From: an uncultured Fibrobacteraceae bacterium
GTDB taxonomy: Bacteria > Krumholzibacteriota > Krumholzibacteriia > LZORAL124-64-63
DNA: 64,000 bases
Direction: 5' to 3'
Assembly (NCBI GenBank): GCA_964461255.1
Contig: CAYWTR010000015.1
Coordinates: 6,983 to 70,982 of the forward strand
This document shows positions 8,704-18,484 of the stretch, one piece after another; within the stretch, counting starts at the first letter, position 1; every line of letters starts with the position of its first letter. The notes under the pieces were generated by a model that was not told where the DNA came from, searched no databases, and saw only the letters and a program-made list of their open reading frames with translations. The position numbers and the translations under genes were made by a program.

Positions 8704-9189
8704 ATGGCCGGCAGGAACATCGACCTGCGCGTGAAGGAATTGATGGCCCGCGACGTGGTCTGCGTGCACCCGGAGGATCCGCTGCGCGAGGCGCTCGCGC
8801 TGATGTTCGAGAACCGGGTCTCGGCCGTGCCGGTGGTCGACAAACGTGAACGGTGCAAGGGGATCCTGTCCACAACCGACCTGGTGGGCCTGCTGTTCGG
8901 CCGCCAGGCCGAGCCGGCCGGCGGCGAAGAACCGGCGGACCTGGCGGATTTCCCCGCCGATCTGGCCGAGGCCGGACGGCCCGGCTCCCGCCTGGGCGAT
9001 CGGCTGGTCGGCGAGGTCATGACGCGCAGCGTCATCACCGTCTCCCTGGAAGACACTGTCCTGGCCGCCGCCCGCGAGATGGCCCGCAACCGCGTCCATC
9101 GGCTGGTCGTCATCGATCCCCAGCAGCGGGTTATCGGCATCCTCTCGACCATGGACCTGATAGAAGCCTTCGCGGCGGAGACGCCCTAG
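8704..9189 (+). CDS. CBS domain pair protein
   Basis: Two CBS-like segments (VMARDVVCVHPEDPLREALALMFENRVSAVPVVD and VMTRSVITVSLEDTVLAAAREMARNRVHRLVVID). GGGGAT RBS-like sequence before the ATG. Confidence 0.8.
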   Translation: MAGRNIDLRVKELMARDVVCVHPEDPLREALALMFENRVSAVPVVDKRERCKGILSTTDLVGLLFGRQAEPAGGEEPADLADFPADLAEAGRPGSRLGDRLVGEVMTRSVITVSLEDTVLAAAREMARNRVHRLVVIDPQQRVIGILSTMDLIEAFAAETP

Positions 9190-9232: not shown

Positions 9233-11338
9233 GTGTCAAGCCGCCTGTTCCACCCGCGAAGGCCGCGCGCGCGCTACTTGGCTGCCGCGGCGGCGTTGCT
9301 CGCGCTGGCCGGCGCGCTGCCGGCGGCCGCGCAGCTCGAGCGCGACCGCCCCCAGCCCCCGGGAGCGCCCGAGCCTCCCACCGTCCACGCCCGCCTGGCT
9401 CGCGCCGGCGCCGCCGCCGATCATCCCGGCGCCGGCCACCTCATCGTGCTCGACCACGCCGTCAACCACGTCGAGCCCAGCGGCGTCACCTACATCGACC
9501 ATTACCAGCTGCTGAAGATCCTGACCCCGGCGGGGGCGGTGCAGCGCTCGGCGCTGGTGTGGCCCTACGATCCGCGCAGCAGCCACGTGGAGATCGCCGA
9601 GGTCAACCTGGTGCGAGACGGACGGCGGCTGCCGGTCGATCTGGCGGCGCTCAAGGATCTGCCGGCGCCGCAGGCCGCCATCTACTGGGCGGATCGCATC
9701 AAGACGCTGCAGCTGCCGCGGTTGCGGGCCGGCGACGGCGTCGAGATCGTGGCGATGCGCAAGGGCTACAACTACGCCCTGCTGCGCGACGGCGGGGACG
9801 AGGCGCCCCGCCTGGCGGGCGCCCGCGAGCGCATCCGCGGCGCCGGCGACGAGGACGACCGTTACATCCCCCCCATGGCCGGCGAGTACTTCGACATCGT
9901 GGTGATGCAGGCCGACGTGCCCATCGTCGAGAAGCGGTACGAGCTGGTGCTGCCGGCGGACAAGCGTCTGATCAGCCAGGTCTACAACGGCCCGCTCTAC
10001 GCGCGCACGGACTACGACGCGCAGGCCACGCGCTACAGCTGGTGGATCGAGAACGTCCCCGCGAGGCCGCGCGAGCCGCGCCAGCCGGGCGAGCAGGACA
10101 TCTGCCCCAAGGTGGTGATGACCACGGCTCCCAGCTGGGAGGCGAAGTCGCGCTGGTTCCTGGACGTCAACCGCAACCAGTTCGAGATCACCGGCGACAT
10201 CCGCGCGCACGTCGCGAGCGTGCTGGCGGAGGCCGGGCTGACCCAGCGCAGCGATCCCCTGCAGGTCGCCAAGGCGCTGAACCACTGGGTGGCGCAGAAC
10301 ATCCGTTACAGCGGCCAGACGATGGGCGAGGGCGAAGGCTTCACGCTGCATCCGTCGCACATGTTGTTCGAGTACCGCAGCGGCGTCTGCAAGGACATCG
10401 CCTCGATGAGCGTGACCCTGCTGCGCGCGGCGGGACTGGCCGCCTATCCCGCGATGACCATGGCCGGCAGCCGCATCGAGGACATCCCGGCCGACCAGTT
10501 CAACCATTGCGTGGTCGCCTGGGAGCAGGCGCCCGGCGAGTTCGTGATGCTCGACCCCACCTGGGTGCCTTTCACCAACGACATCTGGTCGAAGCTGGAG
10601 ACCGAGCAGCAGTACGTGATCGGTCACCCGCAGGGGATGGCGCTGCAGGAGATCCGCTACAGCCCGCCGGAGGAATCGCCGCTGGCGGTGCGGCACACGG
10701 CCGAGCTGCGGCCGGACGGAACGCTGTCCGGCAGGCTGCGCCTGGAGGGGCGGGGAGCCCTGGACGGACGTTTGCGCAGCCTGGTGGCGGGGCAGTCGCG
10801 GCGCGGTCTGACGCCGGCGCTGGCGGCCCTGCTGGCGCAGGCCAGCCCCCGCGCGGTCGTGCAGACGGTCGCGCACCGCGCGCCGGACGATTTCACGGGC
10901 GACATGTGGCTGGAGATCGCCTACGAGGCGCCCGGGCACGCCCTGGAGGTCGGCGACGGACTGGAGTTCAAGCCGATGGCGGCCGCGCTGCTGAAGGACC
11001 ATCCCTCGCTCTTCCGCGCCGGCGCGAGCGACTGGCCGGCCGAGCGCCGCACGGACCTGCTGCTGTACCACACCCAACGCCTGGAGCTTGTCGAGGAGAT
11101 CCGCCTGCCCGCCGGCTACCGGCTGGCCAGCGCGCCGCTGCCGGCCGGCGTCGACGAGACCTACGCCGCCTTCAGCGCCGAAGCGGAGCTGCGTGGTCGG
11201 ACGCTGCGCCTGCAGGCGCGCACCGATATCCGGCGCCGCCAGATCCCGCCGGACGGTTACGCCGGCTTCCGGAAGACGGTCGCCGCGCTCGACGATTTCG
11301 CCGCGACCGTCATCCGCGTGAGCAAGGGAGGTTCATGA
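9233..11338 (+). CDS. Secreted DUF3857-like plus transglutaminase-like cysteine protease domain protein
   Basis: Signal peptide, then transglutaminase core with Cys/His/Asp context (YRSGVCKDIASMSVTLLRAAGLAAYPAMT ... FNHCVVAWE ... VMLDPTW). Confidence 0.65.
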   Translation: MSSRLFHPRRPRARYLAAAAALLALAGALPAAAQLERDRPQPPGAPEPPTVHARLARAGAAADHPGAGHLIVLDHAVNHVEPSGVTYIDHYQLLKILTPAGAVQRSALVWPYDPRSSHVEIAEVNLVRDGRRLPVDLAALKDLPAPQAAIYWADRIKTLQLPRLRAGDGVEIVAMRKGYNYALLRDGGDEAPRLAGARERIRGAGDEDDRYIPPMAGEYFDIVVMQADVPIVEKRYELVLPADKRLISQVYNGPLYARTDYDAQATRYSWWIENVPARPREPRQPGEQDICPKVVMTTAPSWEAKSRWFLDVNRNQFEITGDIRAHVASVLAEAGLTQRSDPLQVAKALNHWVAQNIRYSGQTMGEGEGFTLHPSHMLFEYRSGVCKDIASMSVTLLRAAGLAAYPAMTMAGSRIEDIPADQFNHCVVAWEQAPGEFVMLDPTWVPFTNDIWSKLETEQQYVIGHPQGMALQEIRYSPPEESPLAVRHTAELRPDGTLSGRLRLEGRGALDGRLRSLVAGQSRRGLTPALAALLAQASPRAVVQTVAHRAPDDFTGDMWLEIAYEAPGHALEVGDGLEFKPMAAALLKDHPSLFRAGASDWPAERRTDLLLYHTQRLELVEEIRLPAGYRLASAPLPAGVDETYAAFSAEAELRGRTLRLQARTDIRRRQIPPDGYAGFRKTVAALDDFAATVIRVSKGGS

Positions 11339-13245
11339 TGGGCCGGCTGTCGCTGCCGCTGCTGGCGCTGGGTCTGCTGGCGCACGCGCCGGTCGCTCGC
11401 GCCGCGGCCGACTACCCCGCCGCCGATCCGCGCCCCCTGCTGGAGGAGGCGAGCGCCGCCTGGGACCTGTCGCAACAGGACGCCGTGCTGCTGCGCGAAG
11501 AAGCGCGCCACGTCCAGCTCGCGGACGGGCGGTGGCGCGAGGAGCGCCGCCGCGTGGTCTGGATCCGCACGCACTGGGCGCTGGGCGTTTTCGCCGATCT
11601 GCGGCTGCCTTGGGACAGCGCGCGGCAGACCTTCACGGTCGGCGCGCTGCGCGTCTGGCGCGACGGGCGCTGGATCGAGGGGCGGCCGACCGCCGTGGTC
11701 GAGACCACCCCCTTCGCCCTGCGCGACGCGCCCGATTACGCCTCCGTGCGCGAGACGATGCTGCTGCACGACGGCATCGAGCTGCCCTGCGTTTTGGAAT
11801 GCGCTTACGCGCTGGAGGACCTGGCGCCGCCGCGCGGCGGCCGTGAGGGGCTGTGGGCCTTCCGCCATGTCGTCCCCGCGCTGGAGAGCCGCCTGACCAT
11901 CGAGACGCCGGCCGGCGCGCCGTTGCGCGCGCTGCCGGCCGGCGGCGCCCCGGCGGCCAGGCCGGAGCCCGCCGGCGGCGAGCCGGGCCGCACGGTTCTG
12001 ACGTTCGCCATGCGCCGCACGGAGGCGGCGCCGCTGTTCGCGGCCGACCCGCCCGAAGCCGACCTGCCGCGCGTGGCCTGGTCCAGCTTCGCGGACTGGC
12101 CGGCGCTGGGCCAGGCCGTGGCCGCCGGCCTGGACGGCGGCGATGAACTGGACGCGGCGCTGGTCGACAGCCTGGAGGCGCTGCGCGTGGGCGGGCCGCC
12201 CATCGCGGAACTGGCCGGTCGCGTCGCCGCCTTCGTCGCCCGGGCGCACCGCCATGTCCACTATCCGGCGCGGGTGCTGCCGCCGGCCGCGCGGCCGGTG
12301 GCGCGCATCCACGACACCGCCTACGGCGGCGATCTCGACCTGGCGGCGCTGGCGGCGGCGCTGTTGCGGCGTGCCGGCTGCCGGGTATGGCCGGCCCTGG
12401 TGGGCCGGGGGCACGGTTCCATCGACGGCGAGCCGCCCTCGCTGGCGCTGCTGCGCGCACCAGGCCTTTGGCTGGAGGCCGACGGCCTGGCGGCCTACTG
12501 GGACGCCGCCACCGGACACCTGCACCACGGCGGCGGCTTCCTCAGCGGGCGGACCCTGTGGCGGATAGGGCTCGACGAGCGGCCGGCCGTCTGGCCGCCC
12601 GGCGGCGACGGCGGCGGCCGCCTCGACCTGAGCGTCCTGCTGCGTTGGGACGCCGCCGCGAAGCGCTGGACCGGCAGCGGCTACCTGGAGGCGGCGGGCG
12701 CGTGCAGCCCCTACGACCAGATGGCGGGCCCGGGCGGCGCGGCGCAGGCGGAGCTGGACCGCATGATCAGCGGCGTGCTGGCGGGCATGGCCACCCAGTC
12801 CTATGGCCCTCGTGCCTTCGCACCCACAGCTGTCGGCCTGCATTTCGATCTGCGCCCAGCAGCCGCCGCGCGCGACACTCTGGGCCGCCTGCCATTGGCG
12901 ATCGGCGCTCCCGCCGGCGGACCGCTGTCGCTCGTGCCCGGCGACTGGAAGCTGCATCTGCCCGCGCGCGAGGCTGCGGCACGGCTGCCCGGTCCGCTGG
13001 CCCAGACCATCAAGATCGACGTCGATCTGGGCGGGCTCGAGAGCGTCCGCCTGCCGGCGCCGGTCCAGATCAGCAACGCGGCGGGAAGCTTCCGGCTCGA
13101 GGCCGCGCGCGCGGGCGAGCGGCTCTCGATCACCCGCGCGCTGCGGCTGGACCGGGCGCGCTACGAGCCGGCGGACTGGCCGGCATTGCGCGCGCTGCTG
13201 CTGGCGGAAAGCGGCTCCGCCGGCCGCCTGGTCCTGCTGCGGTAG
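11335..13245 (+). CDS. Secreted DUF3858-like protein, partner of the transglutaminase-like gene
   Basis: Start ATGATGG overlaps the upstream stop (ATGA coupling). Signal peptide MMGRLSLPLLALGLLAHAPVARA. The pairing is typical of DUF3857/DUF3858 operons. Confidence 0.5.
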   Translation: MMGRLSLPLLALGLLAHAPVARAAADYPAADPRPLLEEASAAWDLSQQDAVLLREEARHVQLADGRWREERRRVVWIRTHWALGVFADLRLPWDSARQTFTVGALRVWRDGRWIEGRPTAVVETTPFALRDAPDYASVRETMLLHDGIELPCVLECAYALEDLAPPRGGREGLWAFRHVVPALESRLTIETPAGAPLRALPAGGAPAARPEPAGGEPGRTVLTFAMRRTEAAPLFAADPPEADLPRVAWSSFADWPALGQAVAAGLDGGDELDAALVDSLEALRVGGPPIAELAGRVAAFVARAHRHVHYPARVLPPAARPVARIHDTAYGGDLDLAALAAALLRRAGCRVWPALVGRGHGSIDGEPPSLALLRAPGLWLEADGLAAYWDAATGHLHHGGGFLSGRTLWRIGLDERPAVWPPGGDGGGRLDLSVLLRWDAAAKRWTGSGYLEAAGACSPYDQMAGPGGAAQAELDRMISGVLAGMATQSYGPRAFAPTAVGLHFDLRPAAAARDTLGRLPLAIGAPAGGPLSLVPGDWKLHLPAREAAARLPGPLAQTIKIDVDLGGLESVRLPAPVQISNAAGSFRLEAARAGERLSITRALRLDRARYEPADWPALRALLLAESGSAGRLVLLR

Positions 13246-13263
13246 GCGGACCGCCGTGCCGCG

Positions 13264-13602
13264 CTAGTGGTCGCAGACGTTCTCGCCCTGGCGCAGCGTG
13301 CCCGCCAGGTAATCGGCCACAAGCCGCTCGGGCGCTTCGGCCGGGGCGCCCACCATGACCTCGATGCCCTGCGCCGCGAAGAGCTCGCGCGCTCGCTGCC
13401 CCATCCCGCCGGCGATGATCACGCTCGCCCCCTGCTGCGCCAGCCAGGGCGGCAACAGACCAGGCTGATGCGGCGGGGCGGGAATGTCCTCGCGCGCGAG
13501 CACGCGCTGCGCGGCGGGATCGACATCGAGCAGGGCGAAGCTGGCGCAGTGGCCGAAATGCAAGGCCAGCTTGCCGTCGGCGAGCGGGATGGCGATGCGC
13601 AT
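13264..13602 (-). CDS. NifX/NifB-like Fe-Mo cluster-binding family protein (DUF134)
   Basis: MRIAIPLADGKLALHFGHCASFALLD ... VIIAGGMGQRARELFAAQGIEVMVG. RBS caaggagaacggacagATG. Confidence 0.75.
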   Translation of the reverse strand: MRIAIPLADGKLALHFGHCASFALLDVDPAAQRVLAREDIPAPPHQPGLLPPWLAQQGASVIIAGGMGQRARELFAAQGIEVMVGAPAEAPERLVADYLAGTLRQGENVCDH

Positions 13603-13659
13603 CTGTCCGTTCTCCTTGATTGATGTGATCCTGCGGCCGCCGCGGCGGCCGGACGCGGG

Positions 13660-14559
13660 TCACGCCGCCGCCGCGCCGTCCACCAGGGACAACACGCGAC
13701 GCCAGACCCGGCGAATGTCCTCCGCGGAGGGGGTCTCGATCTCGACGACGGCGCGCGCCGCCAGTTGCGCGCGGGTCACACCCGCGTCGTAACGGATTCG
13801 CCCGACCGGCACCGCGCCCGCCGCCAGCGCCCGCGCCTCGATGCGCTCACTCAAGGCGGGCGAAAGATCCCACTTGTTGACGCAGACCGCCGCGGGCAGC
13901 CCGAAATGGCGCGCCAGCGACAGCACGCGCGCCAGGTCGTGATCGCCGGCAACCGTCGGCTCGGTCACGACCACCACCAGCGAGGCGCCCGTGACCGAGG
14001 CGATGACCGGGCAGCCGATTCCCGGCGGCCCGTCCACGAGCACGAGCCCGCGCTGCTGCGCCTCCGCCAACCGCCGCGCCTCCCGCCGCACAGTCGACAC
14101 CAGTTTGCCCGAGTTCTCGGCGGCGATCCCAAGGCGCGCGTGCACCATGGGACCGCTGCGCGTGTCGGAGACCATCCATTCCCCGCAAAGGCGCTCGGGG
14201 AAATCGATGGCCTGCGCCGGGCAGAGCCGCACGCAGAGACCACAGCCCTCGCAGGCGATGGGATCGACGGCGAAGATGGGCGCGCCCTGCTCGCCGGCCG
14301 CGACGCGCATGGCGTCGAATCGGCAGTGCGCCAGGCAGTCGCCACAGCCGGTGCAATCAGCCGGTCGGATGATCGCCTCGCGGCCGCTGTGGAAAGGCCG
14401 GCGCGCGCGCAGGTGCGGCTCCAGCACCAGATGCAGGTCGGCCGCGTCGACGTCGCAGTCGGCGACGACCGCATCCCCGCTGAGAATGGCGAACGAAGCG
14501 GTCAGGCTGGTCTTGCCCGTGCCGCCCTTGCCGCTGATGACCACGATCTCGCGCATCAC
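13660..14559 (-). CDS. MinD/ParA-superfamily P-loop ATPase with inserted 2x[4Fe-4S] ferredoxin domain (COG1149-type)
   Basis: Walker A GKGGTGKTS. Two Cys clusters, CTGCGDCLAHC and CEGCGLCVRLCP, inserted into the ATPase fold. Confidence 0.8.
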   Translation of the reverse strand: MMREIVVISGKGGTGKTSLTASFAILSGDAVVADCDVDAADLHLVLEPHLRARRPFHSGREAIIRPADCTGCGDCLAHCRFDAMRVAAGEQGAPIFAVDPIACEGCGLCVRLCPAQAIDFPERLCGEWMVSDTRSGPMVHARLGIAAENSGKLVSTVRREARRLAEAQQRGLVLVDGPPGIGCPVIASVTGASLVVVVTEPTVAGDHDLARVLSLARHFGLPAAVCVNKWDLSPALSERIEARALAAGAVPVGRIRYDAGVTRAQLAARAVVEIETPSAEDIRRVWRRVLSLVDGAAAA

Positions 14560-15395
14560 GCCTCCCGCGGCGTCATGACAAGCTCGCCCAGGCGCGCAAA
14601 CAGCGGCCGGTAGGCCGGCAGCGCGTCGATCAGCAACGCTCCCTCCGCGTACGCCTCGGCGATGCGCCGGTCATCGGGAATCTCGAGCAGGATCGGTATC
14701 CCCTGCTGCGCGCACCATTCCTGGACACGCCGGTCGCCGGCGCCGGCCCGGTTGATCACCACGCCGTGCGGCAGTTCCAGCTCGCGCGCCAGCGCCGCCG
14801 CCAGGGTCAGGTCGTGCAAGCCGAAGGGCGTCGGCTCGGTCACCAGCAGCAAGTAGTCCGCGCCGCGCACCGCCGCGATCACCGGGCACGATGTCCCCGG
14901 CGGCGCGTCGATCAACGCCGGCAGATCATCTCGCCCTCGCTGTCTCACAGCTCTGATCAGCGGCGGAGCCGCGGGCACCCCGACGTCGAGCCTTCCCTGG
15001 ATCAGCGTGATCGGTCCCGCCGTCAGGGTCTCCACGACACCGATGCGCCGGCCCGTTTCGCTGATGGCGCGTTGAGGACAGACCAGGGCGCAGCCGCCGC
15101 AGCCGTGGCAGAGCTCGGCGAAGACAAGCGGCTCCGTCCCGAACGAGACGATGGCGTGGTACTGGCAGAAGCGGCTGCACTCGCCGCAGCCGTCGCAGCG
15201 AGCCGCATCGACCACCGGGACGGGCAGCGTCACCTCGACGCTGTCGCGGCATGTTCCCGCCAGGAACAGGTGCGCGTTGGGCGCCTCGACATCGCAATCC
15301 AGCAGCTGCACCGGTTCTCCCAGAGCCTTGGCCAGGTTCACCGCGACCGTGGTCTTGCCGGTGCCGCCCTTGCCCGAAGCCACGGCGACGATCAT
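14556..15395 (-). CDS. MinD/ParA-superfamily P-loop ATPase with inserted 2x[4Fe-4S] ferredoxin domain (second copy)
   Basis: Walker A GKGGTGKTT. Cys clusters CDGCGECSRFC and CHGCGGCALVCP. Start at MIVAVASGKGG (15395) overlaps the upstream stop (ATGA). The stop overlaps the downstream paralog start. Confidence 0.8.
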   Translation of the reverse strand: MIVAVASGKGGTGKTTVAVNLAKALGEPVQLLDCDVEAPNAHLFLAGTCRDSVEVTLPVPVVDAARCDGCGECSRFCQYHAIVSFGTEPLVFAELCHGCGGCALVCPQRAISETGRRIGVVETLTAGPITLIQGRLDVGVPAAPPLIRAVRQRGRDDLPALIDAPPGTSCPVIAAVRGADYLLLVTEPTPFGLHDLTLAAALARELELPHGVVINRAGAGDRRVQEWCAQQGIPILLEIPDDRRIAEAYAEGALLIDALPAYRPLFARLGELVMTPREA

Positions 15396-15754
15396 GCCCA
15401 GTGGCCTTCCACGTCCGCGTCGCTCGCCGGCGCCAGCTCCCCGGCGCGGAAGCGCTCCACGGCCGCCGCCACGGTCGGCGCTTCCGTGTTGTGGATGGAG
15501 ATGCCAGCGGCCTGCAGCACCCGAAACGCCTTCGGCCCGCAATGCCCCGTCACCAGCGCCCTTGCCCCGCTGCGCGCGATGGTCTCGGCCGCCTGCACCC
15601 CCGCGCCTGAGGCGGCCGCCAGGTTCTGCGCGTTGTCGATCACCTGGAATTCATCGGCGTCCAGATCGTAGACGATGAAGCATGCCGCCCGGCCGAAACG
15701 GGGATCCAGCGGCGCGTCCAGCGCCCCGGCCGTCGCTGTCAGCGCGATCTTCAC
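15392..15754 (-). CDS. NifX/NifB-like Fe-Mo cluster-binding family protein (DUF134)
   Basis: VKIALTATAGALDAPLDPRFGRAACFIVYD ... LVTGHCGPKAFRVLQAAGISI ... ERFRAGEL. GTG start preceded by GGAAGGAG with 6-nt spacing. Confidence 0.75.
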   Translation of the reverse strand: MKIALTATAGALDAPLDPRFGRAACFIVYDLDADEFQVIDNAQNLAAASGAGVQAAETIARSGARALVTGHCGPKAFRVLQAAGISIHNTEAPTVAAAVERFRAGELAPASDADVEGHWA

Positions 15755-15851
15755 TCTGCGCTCCTTCCGTAGCGCCGGCGCCGGGCGGCGGTCTCGCCGC
15801 ATCGCCCCCGACGCGGACCGCCCGCCGCGGCGCCGGCCTGCCCAGACGTAC

Positions 15852-16217
15852 TCACGCGCCCGTGTTGTCCGACGCGAGCTCCTGCAGCCGTTTCTCGACC
15901 GCCGCCAGTTGCGCTTTCAGGTCTCCGGCCAGCTGGCGCAGACCCTGCAGCTCCCGGCCGGCATCAAGCGGCGCCCACGGCGCGGGCGCGAAGCCCGCCC
16001 CCGTGGGCAGCCAGCCCGGCTGCCCGGTCGCCCAGGCCCGGTTGCGCCAACCGCGCCCCGCGCCGAAGCCCGGACCGTCGCCCCAGGCGCCGCGCGCGAA
16101 GCGGCGGCCCGGCCAGCCGCTCGCGTACCCGGGCCAGGCGCCGCCGCCGCAGTACCCGGCGCCGCGCCCTGTCATCGGTCCCTGACCCCAGGGTCCCGTC
16201 CTGTCTCCTCCCGGCAT
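15852..16217 (-). CDS. DUF5320-like small protein: Gly/Trp/Pro-rich N-terminal repeats plus C-terminal coiled coil
   Basis: MPGGDRTGPWGQGPMTGRGAGYCGGGAWPGY ... then LQGLRQLAGDLKAQLAAVEKRLQELA. AAGGAGG RBS, 7 nt before the ATG at 16217. Confidence 0.55.
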   Translation of the reverse strand: MPGGDRTGPWGQGPMTGRGAGYCGGGAWPGYASGWPGRRFARGAWGDGPGFGAGRGWRNRAWATGQPGWLPTGAGFAPAPWAPLDAGRELQGLRQLAGDLKAQLAAVEKRLQELASDNTGA

Positions 16218-16262
16218 GGTCATGCCTCCTTTCACATCGCGCCTCTCCACCGCCGCGCAGCA

Positions 16263-16913
16263 TCAGCCATCCCGGCGCATGGCGATCCCGCACTGCGGGC
16301 AGCGCTGCTGCGCGCAGGGGACGCCCCGCGCATGCGGCTCCCGGCGCCCGCACTGCGGGCAGACACAGCTGCCGCCGGGACCGCCCGCCTGCGGCCCTCC
16401 CATGCGACCGCGGCCGCCGCCTCCCGCGCCGCCGCCACGTCCTCCTCCGGCACCGCCGCCTCTTGCGCCGCCGCCACGTCCTCCGCCGGCACCGCCGCCG
16501 CCACCGCCGCCGCCGCCGCCACCACGTCCCATGCCTCTCATCGCCCTGTTCCTTCCCAGGCCGCGCCCGCGTCCGGCGCCGCAGCATCCCGGCATCGCGA
16601 AGCGCTCGCCTTCCAGGCGCGCTTCCAGCCACGCCCGCACGATCTCCTCCATCTCCCCGGCCACGAACGGAATCACCTTGATGCCGTAAGACTCGATCAG
16701 CTCCTGCAGGGGCCGCGAGATCGCGCCGCACACCAGCACCTGCGCGCCGCGCTCGGCCAGCCTGAGGGCCCTGGCGGCCGGCGGTTCGAGCGGCAGCATC
16801 TCGTCCGCCGTGCCGACGATGCGCCCCCCCTCCGCTTCCACCACCCGCATCCGTCGCGCGACGTCGAAGACCGGCGCCAACCTGTCGTTCCAGATCGCGA
16901 AAGCCGCCTTCAT
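16263..16913 (-). CDS. DUF134-like domain fused to a Gly/Arg-rich low-complexity region and a C-terminal CxxC...CxxC zinc ribbon
   Basis: N-terminal about 105 aa NifX-like (AFAIWNDRLAPVFDVARRMRVVEAEG...QVLVCGAISRPLQELIESYGIKVIP). Then GGGRGGGA x4. Then CVCPQCGRREPHARGVPCAQQRCPQCG. Confidence 0.65.
   Translation of the reverse strand: MKAAFAIWNDRLAPVFDVARRMRVVEAEGGRIVGTADEMLPLEPPAARALRLAERGAQVLVCGAISRPLQELIESYGIKVIPFVAGEMEEIVRAWLEARLEGERFAMPGCCGAGRGRGLGRNRAMRGMGRGGGGGGGGGGGAGGGRGGGARGGGAGGGRGGGAGGGGRGRMGGPQAGGPGGSCVCPQCGRREPHARGVPCAQQRCPQCGIAMRRDG
16373..16586. repeat. Imperfect about 39-bp tandem repeats (GC-only codons) encoding the GGGRGGGA low-complexity tract
   Basis: ccgccgccacgtcctcc(t/g)ccggcaccgccgcc... 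is repeated 2.5 times within the coding sequence. Confidence 0.6.
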
Positions 16914-16960
16914 GCGGGCGCTCCTCTCTGCGGGCTGGGGGAAAGATCCAGCATGGATCG

Positions 16961-16999
16961 CGCCGCCGGCACCGCGGTTCGTTCATTGACACAACGTGT
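16961..16999. promoter_or_regulatory. AT-rich island with consensus TTGACA and TATAAT hexamers and an ACAC-N3-GTGT inverted repeat. It lies upstream of the minus-strand NifX-like/ATPase cluster, just downstream of the sigma-54 activator gene
   Basis: ttgacacaacgtgtttatttataattgattatgatgaca sits in an otherwise about 70% GC context. The hexamer spacing is only 13 nt, so this may be a DNA-bending or binding site rather than a promoter. Confidence 0.3.
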
Positions 17000-17098
17000 T
17001 TATTTATAATTGATTATGATGACAGCCGGCGCAGGCCGGCCGGATTTACAGTCGCGTTATTGCTACGATATGTGTTCCAAAGGGTCGCGGATATGAGA

Positions 17099-18484
<1,386 letters not shown>

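What the first reader, a model, noticed from the sequence alone, without database searches (positions are those of the whole stretch)
15852..16217. DUF5320-like Gly/Trp/Pro-rich coiled-coil mini-protein inside the metallocluster cluster
This 121-aa protein has GPWGQGPMTGRGAGYCGGG and further G-W/P-G repeats, followed by an amphipathic coiled coil (LQGLRQLAGDLKAQLAAVEKRLQELA). It has a perfect AAGGAGG RBS and sits adjacent to the Gly/Arg-rich protein. The family is uncharacterised, and the aromatic-Gly repeats suggest a scaffold or oligomerising adaptor.
Basis: partly seen in the sequence, partly recalled or inferred. Interest (0 to 1): 0.55.

Follow-up and report, generated by a model that had tools for sequence, protein, structure and literature searches.

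The report
DUF5320 mini-protein in orange-protein operon
This is a real gene for a typical member of the large, still uncharacterised DUF5320 family. It sits in a gene cluster that matches the anaerobe-specific "orange protein" metal-cluster system of Desulfovibrio, so the gene is ordinary, but its invariant N-terminal peptide is a useful lead to what the family does.

Summary
A 121-aa ORF on the minus strand (15852-16217) has an AAGGAGG ribosome-binding site 7 nt upstream. It matches Pfam DUF5320 end to end at 83.7 bits (cutoff 27).

The family is large: 7,358 clusters at 50% identity. Members are almost always stand-alone proteins of 105-135 aa. Each has three parts:
- An almost invariant N-terminal peptide, MPGGDxTGPxGxGPMTGRGAGYCxG, with Cys23 kept in 99% of members.
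- A variable Gly/Arg/aromatic stretch.
- A C-terminal helix of about 30 residues with a strict heptad core.

AlphaFold is confident only about the helix.

The surrounding operon is an orp (orange protein complex) cluster. It holds an OrpR-type regulator (53% identical to a Desulfovibrio vulgaris-like OrpR), an Orp7-like protein, an ORP/Orp8 homologue, two MinD-like Fe-S ATPases and an MrpORP C-domain protein. The same linkage appears in most of 80 genomes from many anaerobic phyla.

DUF5320 is neither Orp7 nor, by profile, Orp5. However, Orp5, a pulled-down subunit of the ORP complex, starts with the same 11 residues (MPYGDGTGPFG).

My best reading is inferred, not shown. The protein is a coiled-coil accessory subunit that docks on the ORP machinery, or ligates a cluster there, through its N-terminal Cys-bearing peptide. 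It is a new member of a known kind, of modest interest.

The parts
15852..16217 (-). DUF5320 gene (121 aa plus stop)
   Evidence: Pfam PF17253, E 2.2e-23, 83.7 bits, profile positions 1-99 of 99. The same 121-aa gene is recorded in identical contigs L001 and L002. 309 homologues were found and 7,358 representative clusters.
16225..16231 (-). Shine-Dalgarno AAGGAGG, 7 nt before the ATG
   Evidence: Read directly from the sequence.
16128..16217 (-). Residues 1-30: near-invariant N-terminal peptide MPGGDRTGPWGQGPMTGRGAGYCGGGAWPG
   Evidence: In 267 relatives, M1 P2 G4 D5 T7 G8 P9 G11 G13 T16 G17 R18 G21 C23 G25 P29 G30 are each at least 93% conserved, and C23 is 99%. AlphaFold pLDDT is 40-52, so this part is not folded on its own. 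The first 11 residues are shared with Desulfovibrio Orp5.
15963..16127 (-). Residues 31-85: Gly/Arg/aromatic low-complexity stretch with a conserved GRGWRNxxxATGxPGW island (residues 54-69)
   Evidence: G54 R55 G56 R58 A63 are 88-97% conserved. The rest is variable. AlphaFold confidence is low; it predicts a short helix at about 57-64.
15858..15962 (-). Residues 86-120: amphipathic heptad helix, a candidate parallel coiled coil
   Evidence: AlphaFold helix 86-119, pLDDT 90-93. Core columns 93/100/104/107/111/114 are at least 96% hydrophobic and the periodicity peak is at 3.5-3.6 residues. R110 (g position) and E115 (e' position) are conserved.
16263..16913 (-). Upstream operon gene: Orp7-like Nitro_FeMo-Co domain fused to a poly-Gly/Arg linker and a CxCPxCG...CxxxxCPxCG module
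   Evidence: PF02579, E 6e-9. BLASTP E 5e-9 to the D. vulgaris-like Orp7 of L089, and both domains end in MPGC. The same fusion occurs in L011, L012, L017, L027 and L041. The Cys module occurs in 42 of 80 DUF5320 loci.
15392..15754 (-). Downstream operon gene: orange protein (ORP/Orp8) homologue
   Evidence: Its best solved relative is D. gigas ORP, 2WFB, E 1.7e-24. It is 45% identical to the D. vulgaris-like Orp8.
14556..15395 (-). MinD/CbiA-type ATPase with an inserted 2x[4Fe-4S] ferredoxin domain (Orp3/Orp4-like)
   Evidence: Pfam CbiA, ParA and Fer4 families. Gene call of 279 aa.
13660..14559 (-). Second MinD/CbiA-type Fe-S ATPase (Orp3/Orp4-like)
   Evidence: Pfam CbiA and Fer4 families. 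It overlaps the previous gene by 4 bp.
13264..13602 (-). Stand-alone Nitro_FeMo-Co protein equivalent to the C-terminal domain of MrpORP (Orp9)
   Evidence: NCBIfam MrpORP, E 3.2e-36, model positions 265-365 only.
17099..18484 (-). OrpR-type PAS / sigma-54 enhancer-binding protein (start approximate)
   Evidence: Pfam PAS, Sigma54_activat and HTH_8. It is 53% identical over the full length to the D. vulgaris-like OrpR, E 6e-164.

Best explanation
Identity (shown): this is a translated gene for a canonical DUF5320 protein. It is the third gene of a six- or seven-gene orp-type operon on the minus strand. The gene order is OrpR, then an Orp7-like protein fused to a Cys-ribbon module, then DUF5320, ORP/Orp8, two MinD-like Fe-S ATPases and an MrpORP C-domain protein.

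Mechanism (inferred): the protein is a small accessory subunit of the orange-protein metal-cluster machinery.
- The C-terminal heptad helix zips two or more chains into a parallel coiled coil.
- That holds together two or more copies of a flexible Gly-rich arm.
- The tip of each arm is the invariant peptide MPGGDxTGPxGxGPMTGRGAGYCxG. It folds only when bound.
- The peptide acts as the handle that docks on the ORP core (the Fe-S ATPases and/or the NifX-like carriers). Its single invariant cysteine contributes a thiolate to a bridging Fe-S or Mo/Cu-S cluster, or to a sulfur transfer step.

The same N-terminal handle is carried by other small proteins in these clusters, joined to different C-terminal modules: an Arg/Gly tail, a Cys-rich ribbon, or the low-complexity body of Desulfovibrio Orp5. 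This suggests one docking site served by several interchangeable adaptors.
For: Gene and family:
- Pfam full-length hit.
- 7,358 representative clusters.
- Conserved MPGGD start.

Operon:
- All genes are on one strand with gaps of 45-97 bp or 4-bp overlaps.
- No sigma-70-like promoter or intrinsic terminator was found inside 13000-17300.

The cluster is an orp cluster:
- OrpR 53% identical.
- ORP 45% identical to Orp8, and 2WFB is its best solved relative.
- The Orp7-like domain matches Orp7 at E 5e-9.
- The ATPases match the published Orp3/Orp4 description (PMC6345978).

Linkage is general. In 80 genomes from many anaerobic phyla:
- A Nitro_FeMo-Co ORF lies within 1.5 kb on the same strand in 64.
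- A MinD-Fer4 ATPase lies within 5 kb in 53.
- Of the 41 loci with at least 5 kb of flank on both sides, only 2 have none of the partners.
- Full-length MrpORP equivalogs (514-543 bits, cutoff 450) sit in the same clusters in L016, L021 and L054.

Anatomy:
- AlphaFold is confident only in helix 86-119.
- The heptad core is strict, and the g-e' pair R110/E115 is conserved.
- The N-terminal peptide is at least 93% conserved although predicted to be disordered.
- C23 is 99% conserved, and 178 of 241 short members have exactly one Cys.

Link to the complex:
- The published DvH orp2 promoter figure shows that orp5 starts ATGCCATACGGAGATG, which is MPYGD.
- The D. vulgaris-like contig L089 gives Orp5 = MPYGDGTGPFG....
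- Orp5 is one of the five proteins pulled down as the ORP complex, and its G20 homologue binds [2Fe-2S] (PMC6345978).
- The handle also occurs on other module types in 28 of 80 loci.
Against: - Nothing here shows a physical interaction, metal binding or oligomerisation. All three are inferred from sequence.
- The similarity to Orp5 covers only 11 residues (8 identical; hhalign probability 8%, E 0.004).
- Orp5 itself has no Pfam DUF5320 hit and only two close homologues.
- One Cys per chain cannot hold a cluster alone. At least two chains, or a partner, must supply the other ligands.
- The Cys lies about 60 residues from the coiled coil, so the helix does not position it precisely.
- Canonical Desulfovibrio clusters (L089, L090) lack a DUF5320 protein, so it is not a universal ORP component.
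- The function of the ORP complex itself is unsettled. Both cell division and Fe-S or Mo-Cu cluster handling have been proposed (PMC6345978, PMC4672049).
Confidence: 0.45

Rival explanations
1. Partner or regulator of the MinD/ParA-type ATPases, working like MinE, ParG or McdB. A coiled-coil dimer presents flexible, Arg-bearing N-terminal tails (invariant R18) to the ATPase dimer to stimulate or time ATP hydrolysis. Its Gly/Arg/aromatic stretch might also drive self-association, so that the ORP complex is positioned in the cell. The cysteine would then be secondary.
For: - Two deviant-Walker-A MinD-like ATPases follow in the operon. An ATPase is the immediate downstream neighbour in 12 of 80 loci and lies within 5 kb in 53 of 80.
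- The architecture, a disordered conserved N-terminus plus a coiled coil, resembles the known small partners of ParA/MinD ATPases. That resemblance is from my own knowledge and was not tested here.
- The ORP complex has been proposed to act in septum positioning, and MrpORP is polar in DvH (PMC6345978, PMC4672049).
Against: - No sequence similarity to MinE, ParG or McdB was found. The profile search of solved structures returned only generic coiled coils at E above 0.1.
- This model does not explain the 99% conservation of a single Cys.
- The tightest linkage is to NifX-like proteins rather than to the ATPases: 64 of 80 within 1.5 kb, and they are the commonest flanking genes.
- Orp3/Orp4-type ATPases carry Fe-S domains and co-purify with ORP (PMC6345978), which points to cofactor handling rather than positioning.
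Confidence: 0.2
2. Sulfur-relay or persulfide carrier. The lone invariant Cys23, in a flexible Gly-rich loop, accepts and passes on sulfane sulfur. That sulfur would be needed to build the thiometallate (Mo-S-Cu) or Fe-S clusters carried by ORP and its partners. The coiled coil only sets the stoichiometry.
For: - The single Cys is 99% conserved, and most members have no other Cys.
- The ORP cluster is sulfide-rich, [S2MoS2CuS2MoS2] (PMC6345978).
- The gene is flanked by NifX-like cluster carriers.
Against: - No cysteine desulfurase or rhodanese was seen among the called genes of the loci I inspected.
- No similarity to the known sulfur carriers TusA, ThiS or rhodanese was detected.
- The handle also occurs without the Cys in the ribbon-type proteins.
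Confidence: 0.15
3. RGG-type nucleic-acid-binding or regulatory protein that is unrelated in function to the neighbouring metalloproteins.
For: - The Gly/Arg/aromatic composition resembles RGG boxes: 24% Gly, 9% Arg, 11% aromatic, net charge about +5.
- Some related clusters carry a DUF134 putative DNA-binding protein instead of OrpR.
Against: - The Arg/Gly stretch is the least conserved part. The conserved parts are the N-terminal peptide and the helix.
- The tight, strand-consistent operon linkage to ORP genes across phyla argues for a shared function.
Confidence: 0.07
4. Spurious ORF produced by GC-rich sequence; not a gene.
For: The window is 70% GC, and long shadow ORFs are common. One overlaps this ORF on the opposite strand.
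Against: - Full-length Pfam hit.
- Thousands of homologues from distant phyla with a conserved start and heptad core.
- A canonical ribosome-binding site.
- Conserved synteny.
Confidence: 0.01

Closest known systems
Pfam PF17253 (DUF5320), 'family of unknown function'
   Same: Full-length match well above threshold. Same length class (family median 123 aa). Same invariant N-terminal peptide, GRGWRN island and C-terminal heptad helix.
   Different: Nothing essential differs. This copy is unusually Trp-rich (8 Trp) and Ala-rich, in line with the 70% GC genome. It is only 47-57% identical to most relatives apart from one 98% match.
Orp5 (DVU2105) of the Desulfovibrio vulgaris orange-protein complex, and its G20 homologue Dde_3197, reported to bind [2Fe-2S]
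   Same: A small Gly/Arg-rich low-complexity protein encoded in an orp cluster next to the two Fe-S ATPases. It has the same extreme N-terminus, MPYGDGTGPFG against MPGGDRTGPWG.
   Different: Orp5 has no Pfam DUF5320 hit, no GPMTGRGAGYC continuation in register, no coiled coil, and is 166-182 aa. Similarity beyond 11 residues is not detectable. In the window, the ribbon-type Cys module, which may be the Dde_3197-like part (an inference), is on the neighbouring 216-aa protein and not on DUF5320.
The orp gene cluster (orp5-4-3 / orpR / orp7-8-9) of Desulfovibrio (Fievet 2011; PMC3897727, PMC6345978, PMC8359166)
   Same: OrpR, Orp7-like, Orp8/ORP and Orp3/Orp4-like proteins are all present and homologous.
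   Different: - One co-directional operon instead of two divergent ones.
- Only the C-terminal domain of MrpORP is present.
- The Orp7-like protein is fused to a Cys-ribbon module.
- A DUF5320 gene is inserted between the Orp7-like and Orp8 genes. The Desulfovibrio clusters lack it.
- No sigma-54 consensus promoter was recognised.
Small partner proteins of ParA/MinD ATPases (McdB, MinE, ParG). This comparison comes from my own knowledge and is analogy only.
   Same: Small size, a disordered functional N-terminus, a coiled-coil oligomerisation element, and a gene next to deviant-Walker-A ATPases.
   Different: No detectable sequence relationship. The invariant Cys and the NifX-like neighbours have no counterpart in those systems.

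Membership tests
Pfam PF17253 DUF5320 | Score at or above the gathering threshold (27 bits) against the family HMM | tested here: met
   83.7 bits, E 2.2e-23.
Pfam PF17253 DUF5320 | The match covers the whole model and the protein is a stand-alone mini-protein | tested here: met
   Profile positions 1-99 of 99, residues 1-114 of 121. Family median length is 123 aa, and no domain fusions were seen among the best 150 representatives.
Pfam PF17253 DUF5320 | Conserved N-terminal MPGGDxTGPxGxGPMTGRGAGYCxG peptide, including the single Cys | tested here: met
   All near-invariant positions are present in the window protein.
Pfam PF17253 DUF5320 | C-terminal heptad (coiled-coil-type) helix | tested here: met
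   L93, L100, L104, V107, L111 and L114 occupy the conserved core columns. AlphaFold helix 86-119 has pLDDT 90-93. Actual oligomerisation was not tested.
orp (orange protein complex) gene cluster | Cognate PAS / sigma-54 enhancer-binding regulator (OrpR) adjacent | tested here: met
   53% identity over 456 aligned residues to the D. vulgaris-like OrpR, E 6e-164.
orp (orange protein complex) gene cluster | Orange protein (Orp8, NifX-like) present | tested here: met
   2WFB (D. gigas ORP) is the best solved relative, E 1.7e-24. 45% identical to the D. vulgaris-like Orp8.
orp (orange protein complex) gene cluster | Two paralogous MinD-like ATPases with two [4Fe-4S] ferredoxin motifs (Orp3/Orp4) | tested here: met
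   Both proteins hit CbiA/ParA and several Fer4 families.
orp (orange protein complex) gene cluster | Two-domain MrpORP (Orp9) present | tested here: not met
   Only a 112-aa protein matching model positions 265-365 is present (125 bits, cutoff 450). I did not look for an Mrp P-loop gene elsewhere in the window. Full MrpORP genes do occur in related DUF5320 clusters.
orp (orange protein complex) gene cluster | Sigma-54-dependent promoter upstream of the operon | tested here: inconclusive
   No TGGCAC-N5-TTGC match with 2 or fewer mismatches in 16914-17098. The intergenic region is an AT-rich island with an AATCAATTATAAA element resembling the DvH orp1 IHF1 site.
orp (orange protein complex) gene cluster | The proteins form a physical complex | not testable with these tools
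   Needs pull-down or co-purification.
Orp5 (DVU2105) family | Detectable full-length homology to Orp5 | tested here: not met
   Only residues 1-11 align (hhalign probability 8%). Orp5 has no PF17253 hit, and its search returned only two close Desulfovibrio relatives.
Orp5 (DVU2105) family | Shared extreme N-terminal motif MPxGD(G/R)TGPxG | tested here: met
   MPGGDRTGPWG against MPYGDGTGPFG. The motif occurs only once in the six-frame translation of the window.
McdB/MinE/ParG-like ATPase partner proteins | Stimulates or regulates a neighbouring ParA/MinD-type ATPase | not testable with these tools
   Only the architectural analogy is available. There is no sequence similarity to solved structures.

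The most novel reading that the evidence does not exclude
The invariant N-terminal peptide MPxGD(G/R)TGPxGxG(P)xTGR..G.C defines a previously unrecognised modular 'handle'. It is shared by DUF5320 proteins, by Orp5, and by the Arg/Gly-tail and Cys-ribbon mini-proteins of orp-type clusters. All of them would dock at one site of the anaerobe-specific ORP machinery and, through Cys23, take part directly in assembling or transferring its Fe-S or Mo-Cu-S clusters. DUF5320 would then be a missing, widespread subunit of the orange-protein system, present in dozens of anaerobic phyla and some archaea.
Probability: 0.3. Interest if true: 0.6.

Novelty: new member of a known kind. Interest (0 to 1): 0.35.

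Why it matters
The gene is a routine member of a catalogued family. That family is large (thousands of clusters), confined to anaerobes and some archaea in the genomes sampled, and has no assigned function or structure. It is tightly linked to the orange-protein complex, whose own role is still debated (Fe-S or Mo-Cu cluster handling versus cell division).

Two findings give specialists a concrete, testable entry point. DUF5320 shares its invariant N-terminal peptide with Orp5, a proven ORP-complex subunit. It also carries a single 99%-conserved cysteine. Mutating or deleting the handle, testing co-purification and looking for a bridging cluster are all feasible.

For annotation, the operon can be relabelled as an orp-type cluster, and the 216-aa neighbour as an Orp7-like/Cys-ribbon fusion.

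Tried and rejected
1. DUF5320 = Orp7 (DVU2107), my first guess from gene order. Rejected. The published promoter figure shows that orp7 starts MIVH. The D. vulgaris-like Orp7 in L089 is a weak Nitro_FeMo-Co protein homologous to the window's 216-aa protein, not to DUF5320.
2. DUF5320 = Orp5 by homology. Not supported beyond 11 residues. A homologue search with Orp5 returned only two close relatives and no bridging sequences.
3. Fievet 2011 (PMC3133258), the primary ORP paper, is not held. A literature search for DUF5320 gave two irrelevant papers. Searches for DVU2107, COG1149 and Orp3/Orp4 added nothing on this protein.
4. Solved-structure search with the family profile: only generic coiled coils at E above 0.1.
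5. Domain fusions as functional clues: the longer family members are mis-called starts or duplications of the N-terminal peptide, not fusions to other domains.
6. AlphaFold with 30 and then 113 sequences: no fold for residues 1-85 in either run. I therefore ran no fold search.
7. Sigma-54 promoter, sigma-70 promoter and terminator scans around the operon: nothing convincing.
8. NCBIfam has no model for this protein.
9. Tandem-repeat search: no DNA repeat in this ORF.
Full report
OBSERVATION

The finding's coordinates hold a 121-codon ORF on the minus strand (15852-16217). It translates to MPGGDRTGPWGQGPMTGRGAGYCGGG...LQGLRQLAGDLKAQLAAVEKRLQELASDNTGA. AAGGAGG lies at 16225-16231 on the minus strand, 7 nt before the ATG.

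A longer reading from a GTG at 16250 is possible on paper. The MPGGD start is invariant in relatives and is the start recorded for the gene in the identical contigs L001 and L002.

Codon-position GC is 0.76/0.70/0.87. The third-position value is like the neighbouring genes. The high second-position value reflects the Gly/Ala/Pro/Arg-rich composition. The 167-aa ORF on the opposite strand is a shadow ORF.

The 'aromatic-Gly repeats' are compositional: 24% Gly, 9% Pro, 9% Arg, 6.6% Trp. They are not periodic, and Tandem Repeats Finder reports nothing in this ORF.

FAMILY

The protein matches Pfam PF17253 (DUF5320) over the whole model at 83.7 bits (cutoff 27), E 2.2e-23. NCBIfam has no model for it.
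- A word-indexed search found 309 homologues, all carrying PF17253. One is 98% identical and the others listed are about 40-57% over most of the length.
- A full HMM scan of 1.84 billion representatives found 7,358 clusters at E up to 1e-3 and 3,571 at E up to 1e-10.
- Members are nearly all stand-alone proteins of 105-135 aa. The longer ones are mis-called starts or carry a second copy of the N-terminal peptide, with no foreign domains.
The 80 loci kept come from Bacillota, Actinomycetota, Planctomycetota, Chloroflexota, Desulfobacterota, Spirochaetota, Atribacterota, Acidobacteriota, Omnitrophota, Zixibacteria and other phyla, plus two archaeal bins.

ANATOMY

Conservation was measured in 267 relatives.

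1. Residues 1-30 are almost invariant. M1, P2, G4, G8, P9, G11, G13, G17, G21 and C23 are 99-100% conserved. D5, T7, T16, R18, G25, P29 and G30 are 93-97%. Of 241 short members, 178 have exactly one cysteine, and it is this one.

2. Residues 31-85 are a variable Gly/Arg/aromatic stretch with one conserved island, G54-R-G-W-R-N...A63-T-G-x-P-G-W69.

3. Residues 86-119 form a helix with a strict heptad core. Columns 93, 100, 104, 107, 111 and 114 are at least 96% L/I/V/M/F. Most of the columns between them are at most about 10% hydrophobic. The periodicity peak is at 3.5-3.6 residues. A conserved Arg at a g position (R110, 92%) and Glu at the following e' position (E115, 62%) fit a parallel coiled coil. 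That last step is inference.

AlphaFold2 with 30 and with 113 aligned sequences is confident only in the helix: pLDDT 87-93 for residues 86-119, against 40-60 elsewhere. A profile search of all PDB sequences gave only generic coiled coils at E above 0.1. So the protein is a conserved but intrinsically unfolded N-terminal arm attached to a short zipper.

CONTEXT IN THE WINDOW

All neighbours are on the minus strand, with short gaps or 4-bp overlaps. No sigma-70-like promoter or intrinsic terminator lies between 13000 and 17300.

| Coordinates (minus strand) | Product | Evidence |
|---|---|---|
| about 17099-18484 | PAS / sigma-54 enhancer-binding protein | |
| 16263-16913 | Nitro_FeMo-Co domain, then poly-Gly/Arg, then CxCPxCG...CPxCG | |
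| 15852-16217 | DUF5320 | |
| 15392-15754 | Nitro_FeMo-Co protein; best solved relative is the D. gigas orange protein 2WFB, E 1.7e-24 | |
| 14556-15395 and 13660-14559 | Two MinD/CbiA ATPases with inserted 2x[4Fe-4S] domains | |
| 13264-13602 | Nitro_FeMo-Co protein matching only the C-terminal domain of NCBIfam MrpORP, E 3e-36 | |

IDENTIFICATION AS AN ORP CLUSTER

In Desulfovibrio vulgaris Hildenborough (DvH), the orp5-orp4-orp3 and orp7-orp8-orp9 operons flank orpR.
- Orp3, Orp4, Orp5, Orp8 and Orp9 were pulled down as one complex.
- Orp3 and Orp4 are the Fe-S ATPases. Orp8 is the Mo-Cu orange protein. Orp9 is MrpORP. Orp5 is homologous to a [2Fe-2S]-binding protein (PMC6345978; PMC8359166).

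I recovered a D. vulgaris-like orp locus (L089) by searching metagenome contigs with the published orp2 promoter sequence. A second Desulfovibrio locus, L090, has the canonical layout.

Against these loci:
- The window's regulator is 53% identical to OrpR over its full length, E 6e-164.
- Its ORP is 45% identical to Orp8.
- Its 216-aa protein is homologous to Orp7 (E 5e-9), and both domains end in MPGC.

The window therefore holds an orp-type cluster arranged as a single operon.

IS THE LINKAGE GENERAL?

Across the 80 genome loci:

| Partner | All 80 loci | 41 loci with at least 5 kb on both sides |
|---|---|---|
| Nitro_FeMo-Co-like ORF within 1.5 kb, same strand | 64 | 35 |
| MinD-Fer4 ATPase within 5 kb | 53 | 33 |
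| Sigma-54 enhancer-binding protein within 5 kb | 29 | 17 |
| None of the three | not counted | 2 |

- The commonest immediate neighbours are an Orp7-like gene upstream (23 loci) and an Orp8-like gene (26) or an ATPase (12) downstream.
- Full-length MrpORP equivalogs (514-543 bits, cutoff 450) close the same clusters in L016, L021 and L054.
- The window's gene order, enhancer-binding protein, NifX-like, DUF5320, NifX-like, ATPase, ATPase, NifX-like, recurs in many phyla.

WHICH ORP PROTEIN IS DUF5320?

It is not Orp7. The published figure shows that orp7 starts MIVH, and L089's Orp7 is a NifX-like protein.

It is not Orp5 by profile either. The D. vulgaris-like Orp5 is 166 aa, Gly/Arg-rich, has two Cys and no coiled coil. 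It has no Pfam hit and only two close homologues.

Orp5 does begin MPYGDGTGPFG, though. That is the same extreme N-terminal motif as DUF5320 (MPGGDRTGPWG), with 8 of 11 residues identical.

The same handle heads other small ORFs in the DUF5320 loci:
- MPGFDGTGP...C[VL]LK types, which score 36-39 bits on PF17253.
- Handle plus Arg/Gly tail, which scores 25.5 bits.
- Handle plus a Cys-ribbon module, for example L064 8073-8345 and L051. Of these, only L064 was scanned against Pfam, and it has no PF17253 hit.

Of the 80 loci, 28 hold two or more handle-bearing ORFs. 42 hold the Cys-ribbon module, either stand-alone or fused to an Orp7-like domain exactly as in the window.

MECHANISM (INFERRED)

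The parts under the strongest constraint are an unfolded N-terminal peptide with one invariant Cys and a zipper. That peptide also heads a proven ORP-complex subunit and several other module types.

The simplest reading is that the peptide is a docking and/or ligand-donating handle for the ORP machinery, and that the zipper supplies two or more copies of it. I put about 0.45 on this.

Rivals:
- A MinE/ParG/McdB-like regulator of the two ATPases (0.2). This is architectural analogy only, and it does not explain the Cys.
- A persulfide carrier through Cys23 (0.15).
- An RGG-type nucleic-acid binder (0.07).
- A spurious ORF (about 0.01, refuted).

No interaction, metal content or oligomeric state was or could be measured here.

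NOVELTY AND SCORE

The gene is a new member of a known, catalogued but functionally blank family, inside a known type of cluster. The link between DUF5320 and the ORP system, and the handle shared with Orp5, do not appear in the literature I could search. They rest on synteny and an 11-residue motif. Interest is 0.35: ordinary as an instance, with a moderately useful lead for people working on anaerobic metal-cluster biogenesis.

Noticed in passing
window 16263-16913 (-): The 216-aa neighbour is a three-part fusion. It has an Orp7-like Nitro_FeMo-Co domain ending in MPGC, a poly-Gly/Arg linker, and a C-terminal CVCPQCG...PC....CPQCG module. The same module is a stand-alone 79-aa protein in L003 (7746-7985). 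It occurs in 42 of 80 DUF5320 loci, and the same fusion recurs in L011, L012, L017, L027 and L041. The module has no Pfam family above threshold (only weak zinc-ribbon hits). It may correspond to the [2Fe-2S]-binding Dde_3197 type, but I could not check that.
   Followed up: partly
window 16414-16514: A 39-bp tandem repeat (2.6 copies, 88% matches) lies inside the Gly/Arg linker of the 216-aa protein and encodes GGGAGGGRGGGAR-type units. It is likely to vary in length between strains.
   Followed up: no
window 13264-13602 (-): The last gene of the operon is a stand-alone 112-aa protein that matches only the C-terminal (Di-Nase) domain of MrpORP (NCBIfam positions 265-365, E 3e-36). The Mrp/NBP35 P-loop domain is absent from the cluster. 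Related clusters (L016, L021, L054) carry the full two-domain MrpORP.
   Followed up: partly
window 16914-17098 (- strand reading): The intergenic region between the OrpR-like gene and the operon is an AT-rich island in a 70% GC genome. It contains AATCAATTATAAATAAA, which resembles the DvH orp1 IHF1 site AATCAGAATAAAA. No sigma-54 (TGGCAC-N5-TTGC) match with 2 or fewer mismatches was found there.
   Followed up: partly
window about 15790-15825 (- strand), between the DUF5320 and ORP genes: An inverted repeat, GGCGGTC...(22 nt)...GACCGCC, lies in the 97-bp gap after the DUF5320 stop codon. No T-run follows it. It might be an mRNA stem-loop that affects relative expression of the upstream and downstream genes.
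   Followed up: no
L089 7270-7770 (+); L090 6001-6549; P0388, P0389: Desulfovibrio vulgaris-like Orp5 is a 166-182-aa, very low-complexity Gly/Arg-rich protein with two Cys (four in the 182-aa P0389). It has no Pfam family and only two detectable homologues in a 5.8-billion-protein database. So it evolves fast apart from its N-terminal MPYGDGTGPFG.
   Followed up: yes
L028 6220-6705, L077 6489-6959, L061 6869-7378; P0002, P0019, P0241: Some DUF5320 genes encode two copies of the N-terminal peptide in one ORF: an MPxFDGTGP...C[VL]LK unit, about 60 residues, then the canonical MPGGD unit. This looks like a fusion of two adjacent handle-bearing genes.
   Followed up: partly
L085 5942-6752 and L086: In the clusters whose ORP is closest to D. 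gigas ORP (75% identity), OrpR is replaced by a DUF134 protein. No DUF5320 is present. A 112-aa (GQGR)n low-complexity protein occupies the slot upstream of ORP.
   Followed up: no
window 9233-13245 (+) and 8704-9189 (+): Directly next to the operon, on the other strand, are two large DUF3857/transglutaminase-core proteins and a CBS-pair protein. The same neighbours appear in the identical contig L001. There is no obvious link to the orp genes.
   Followed up: no
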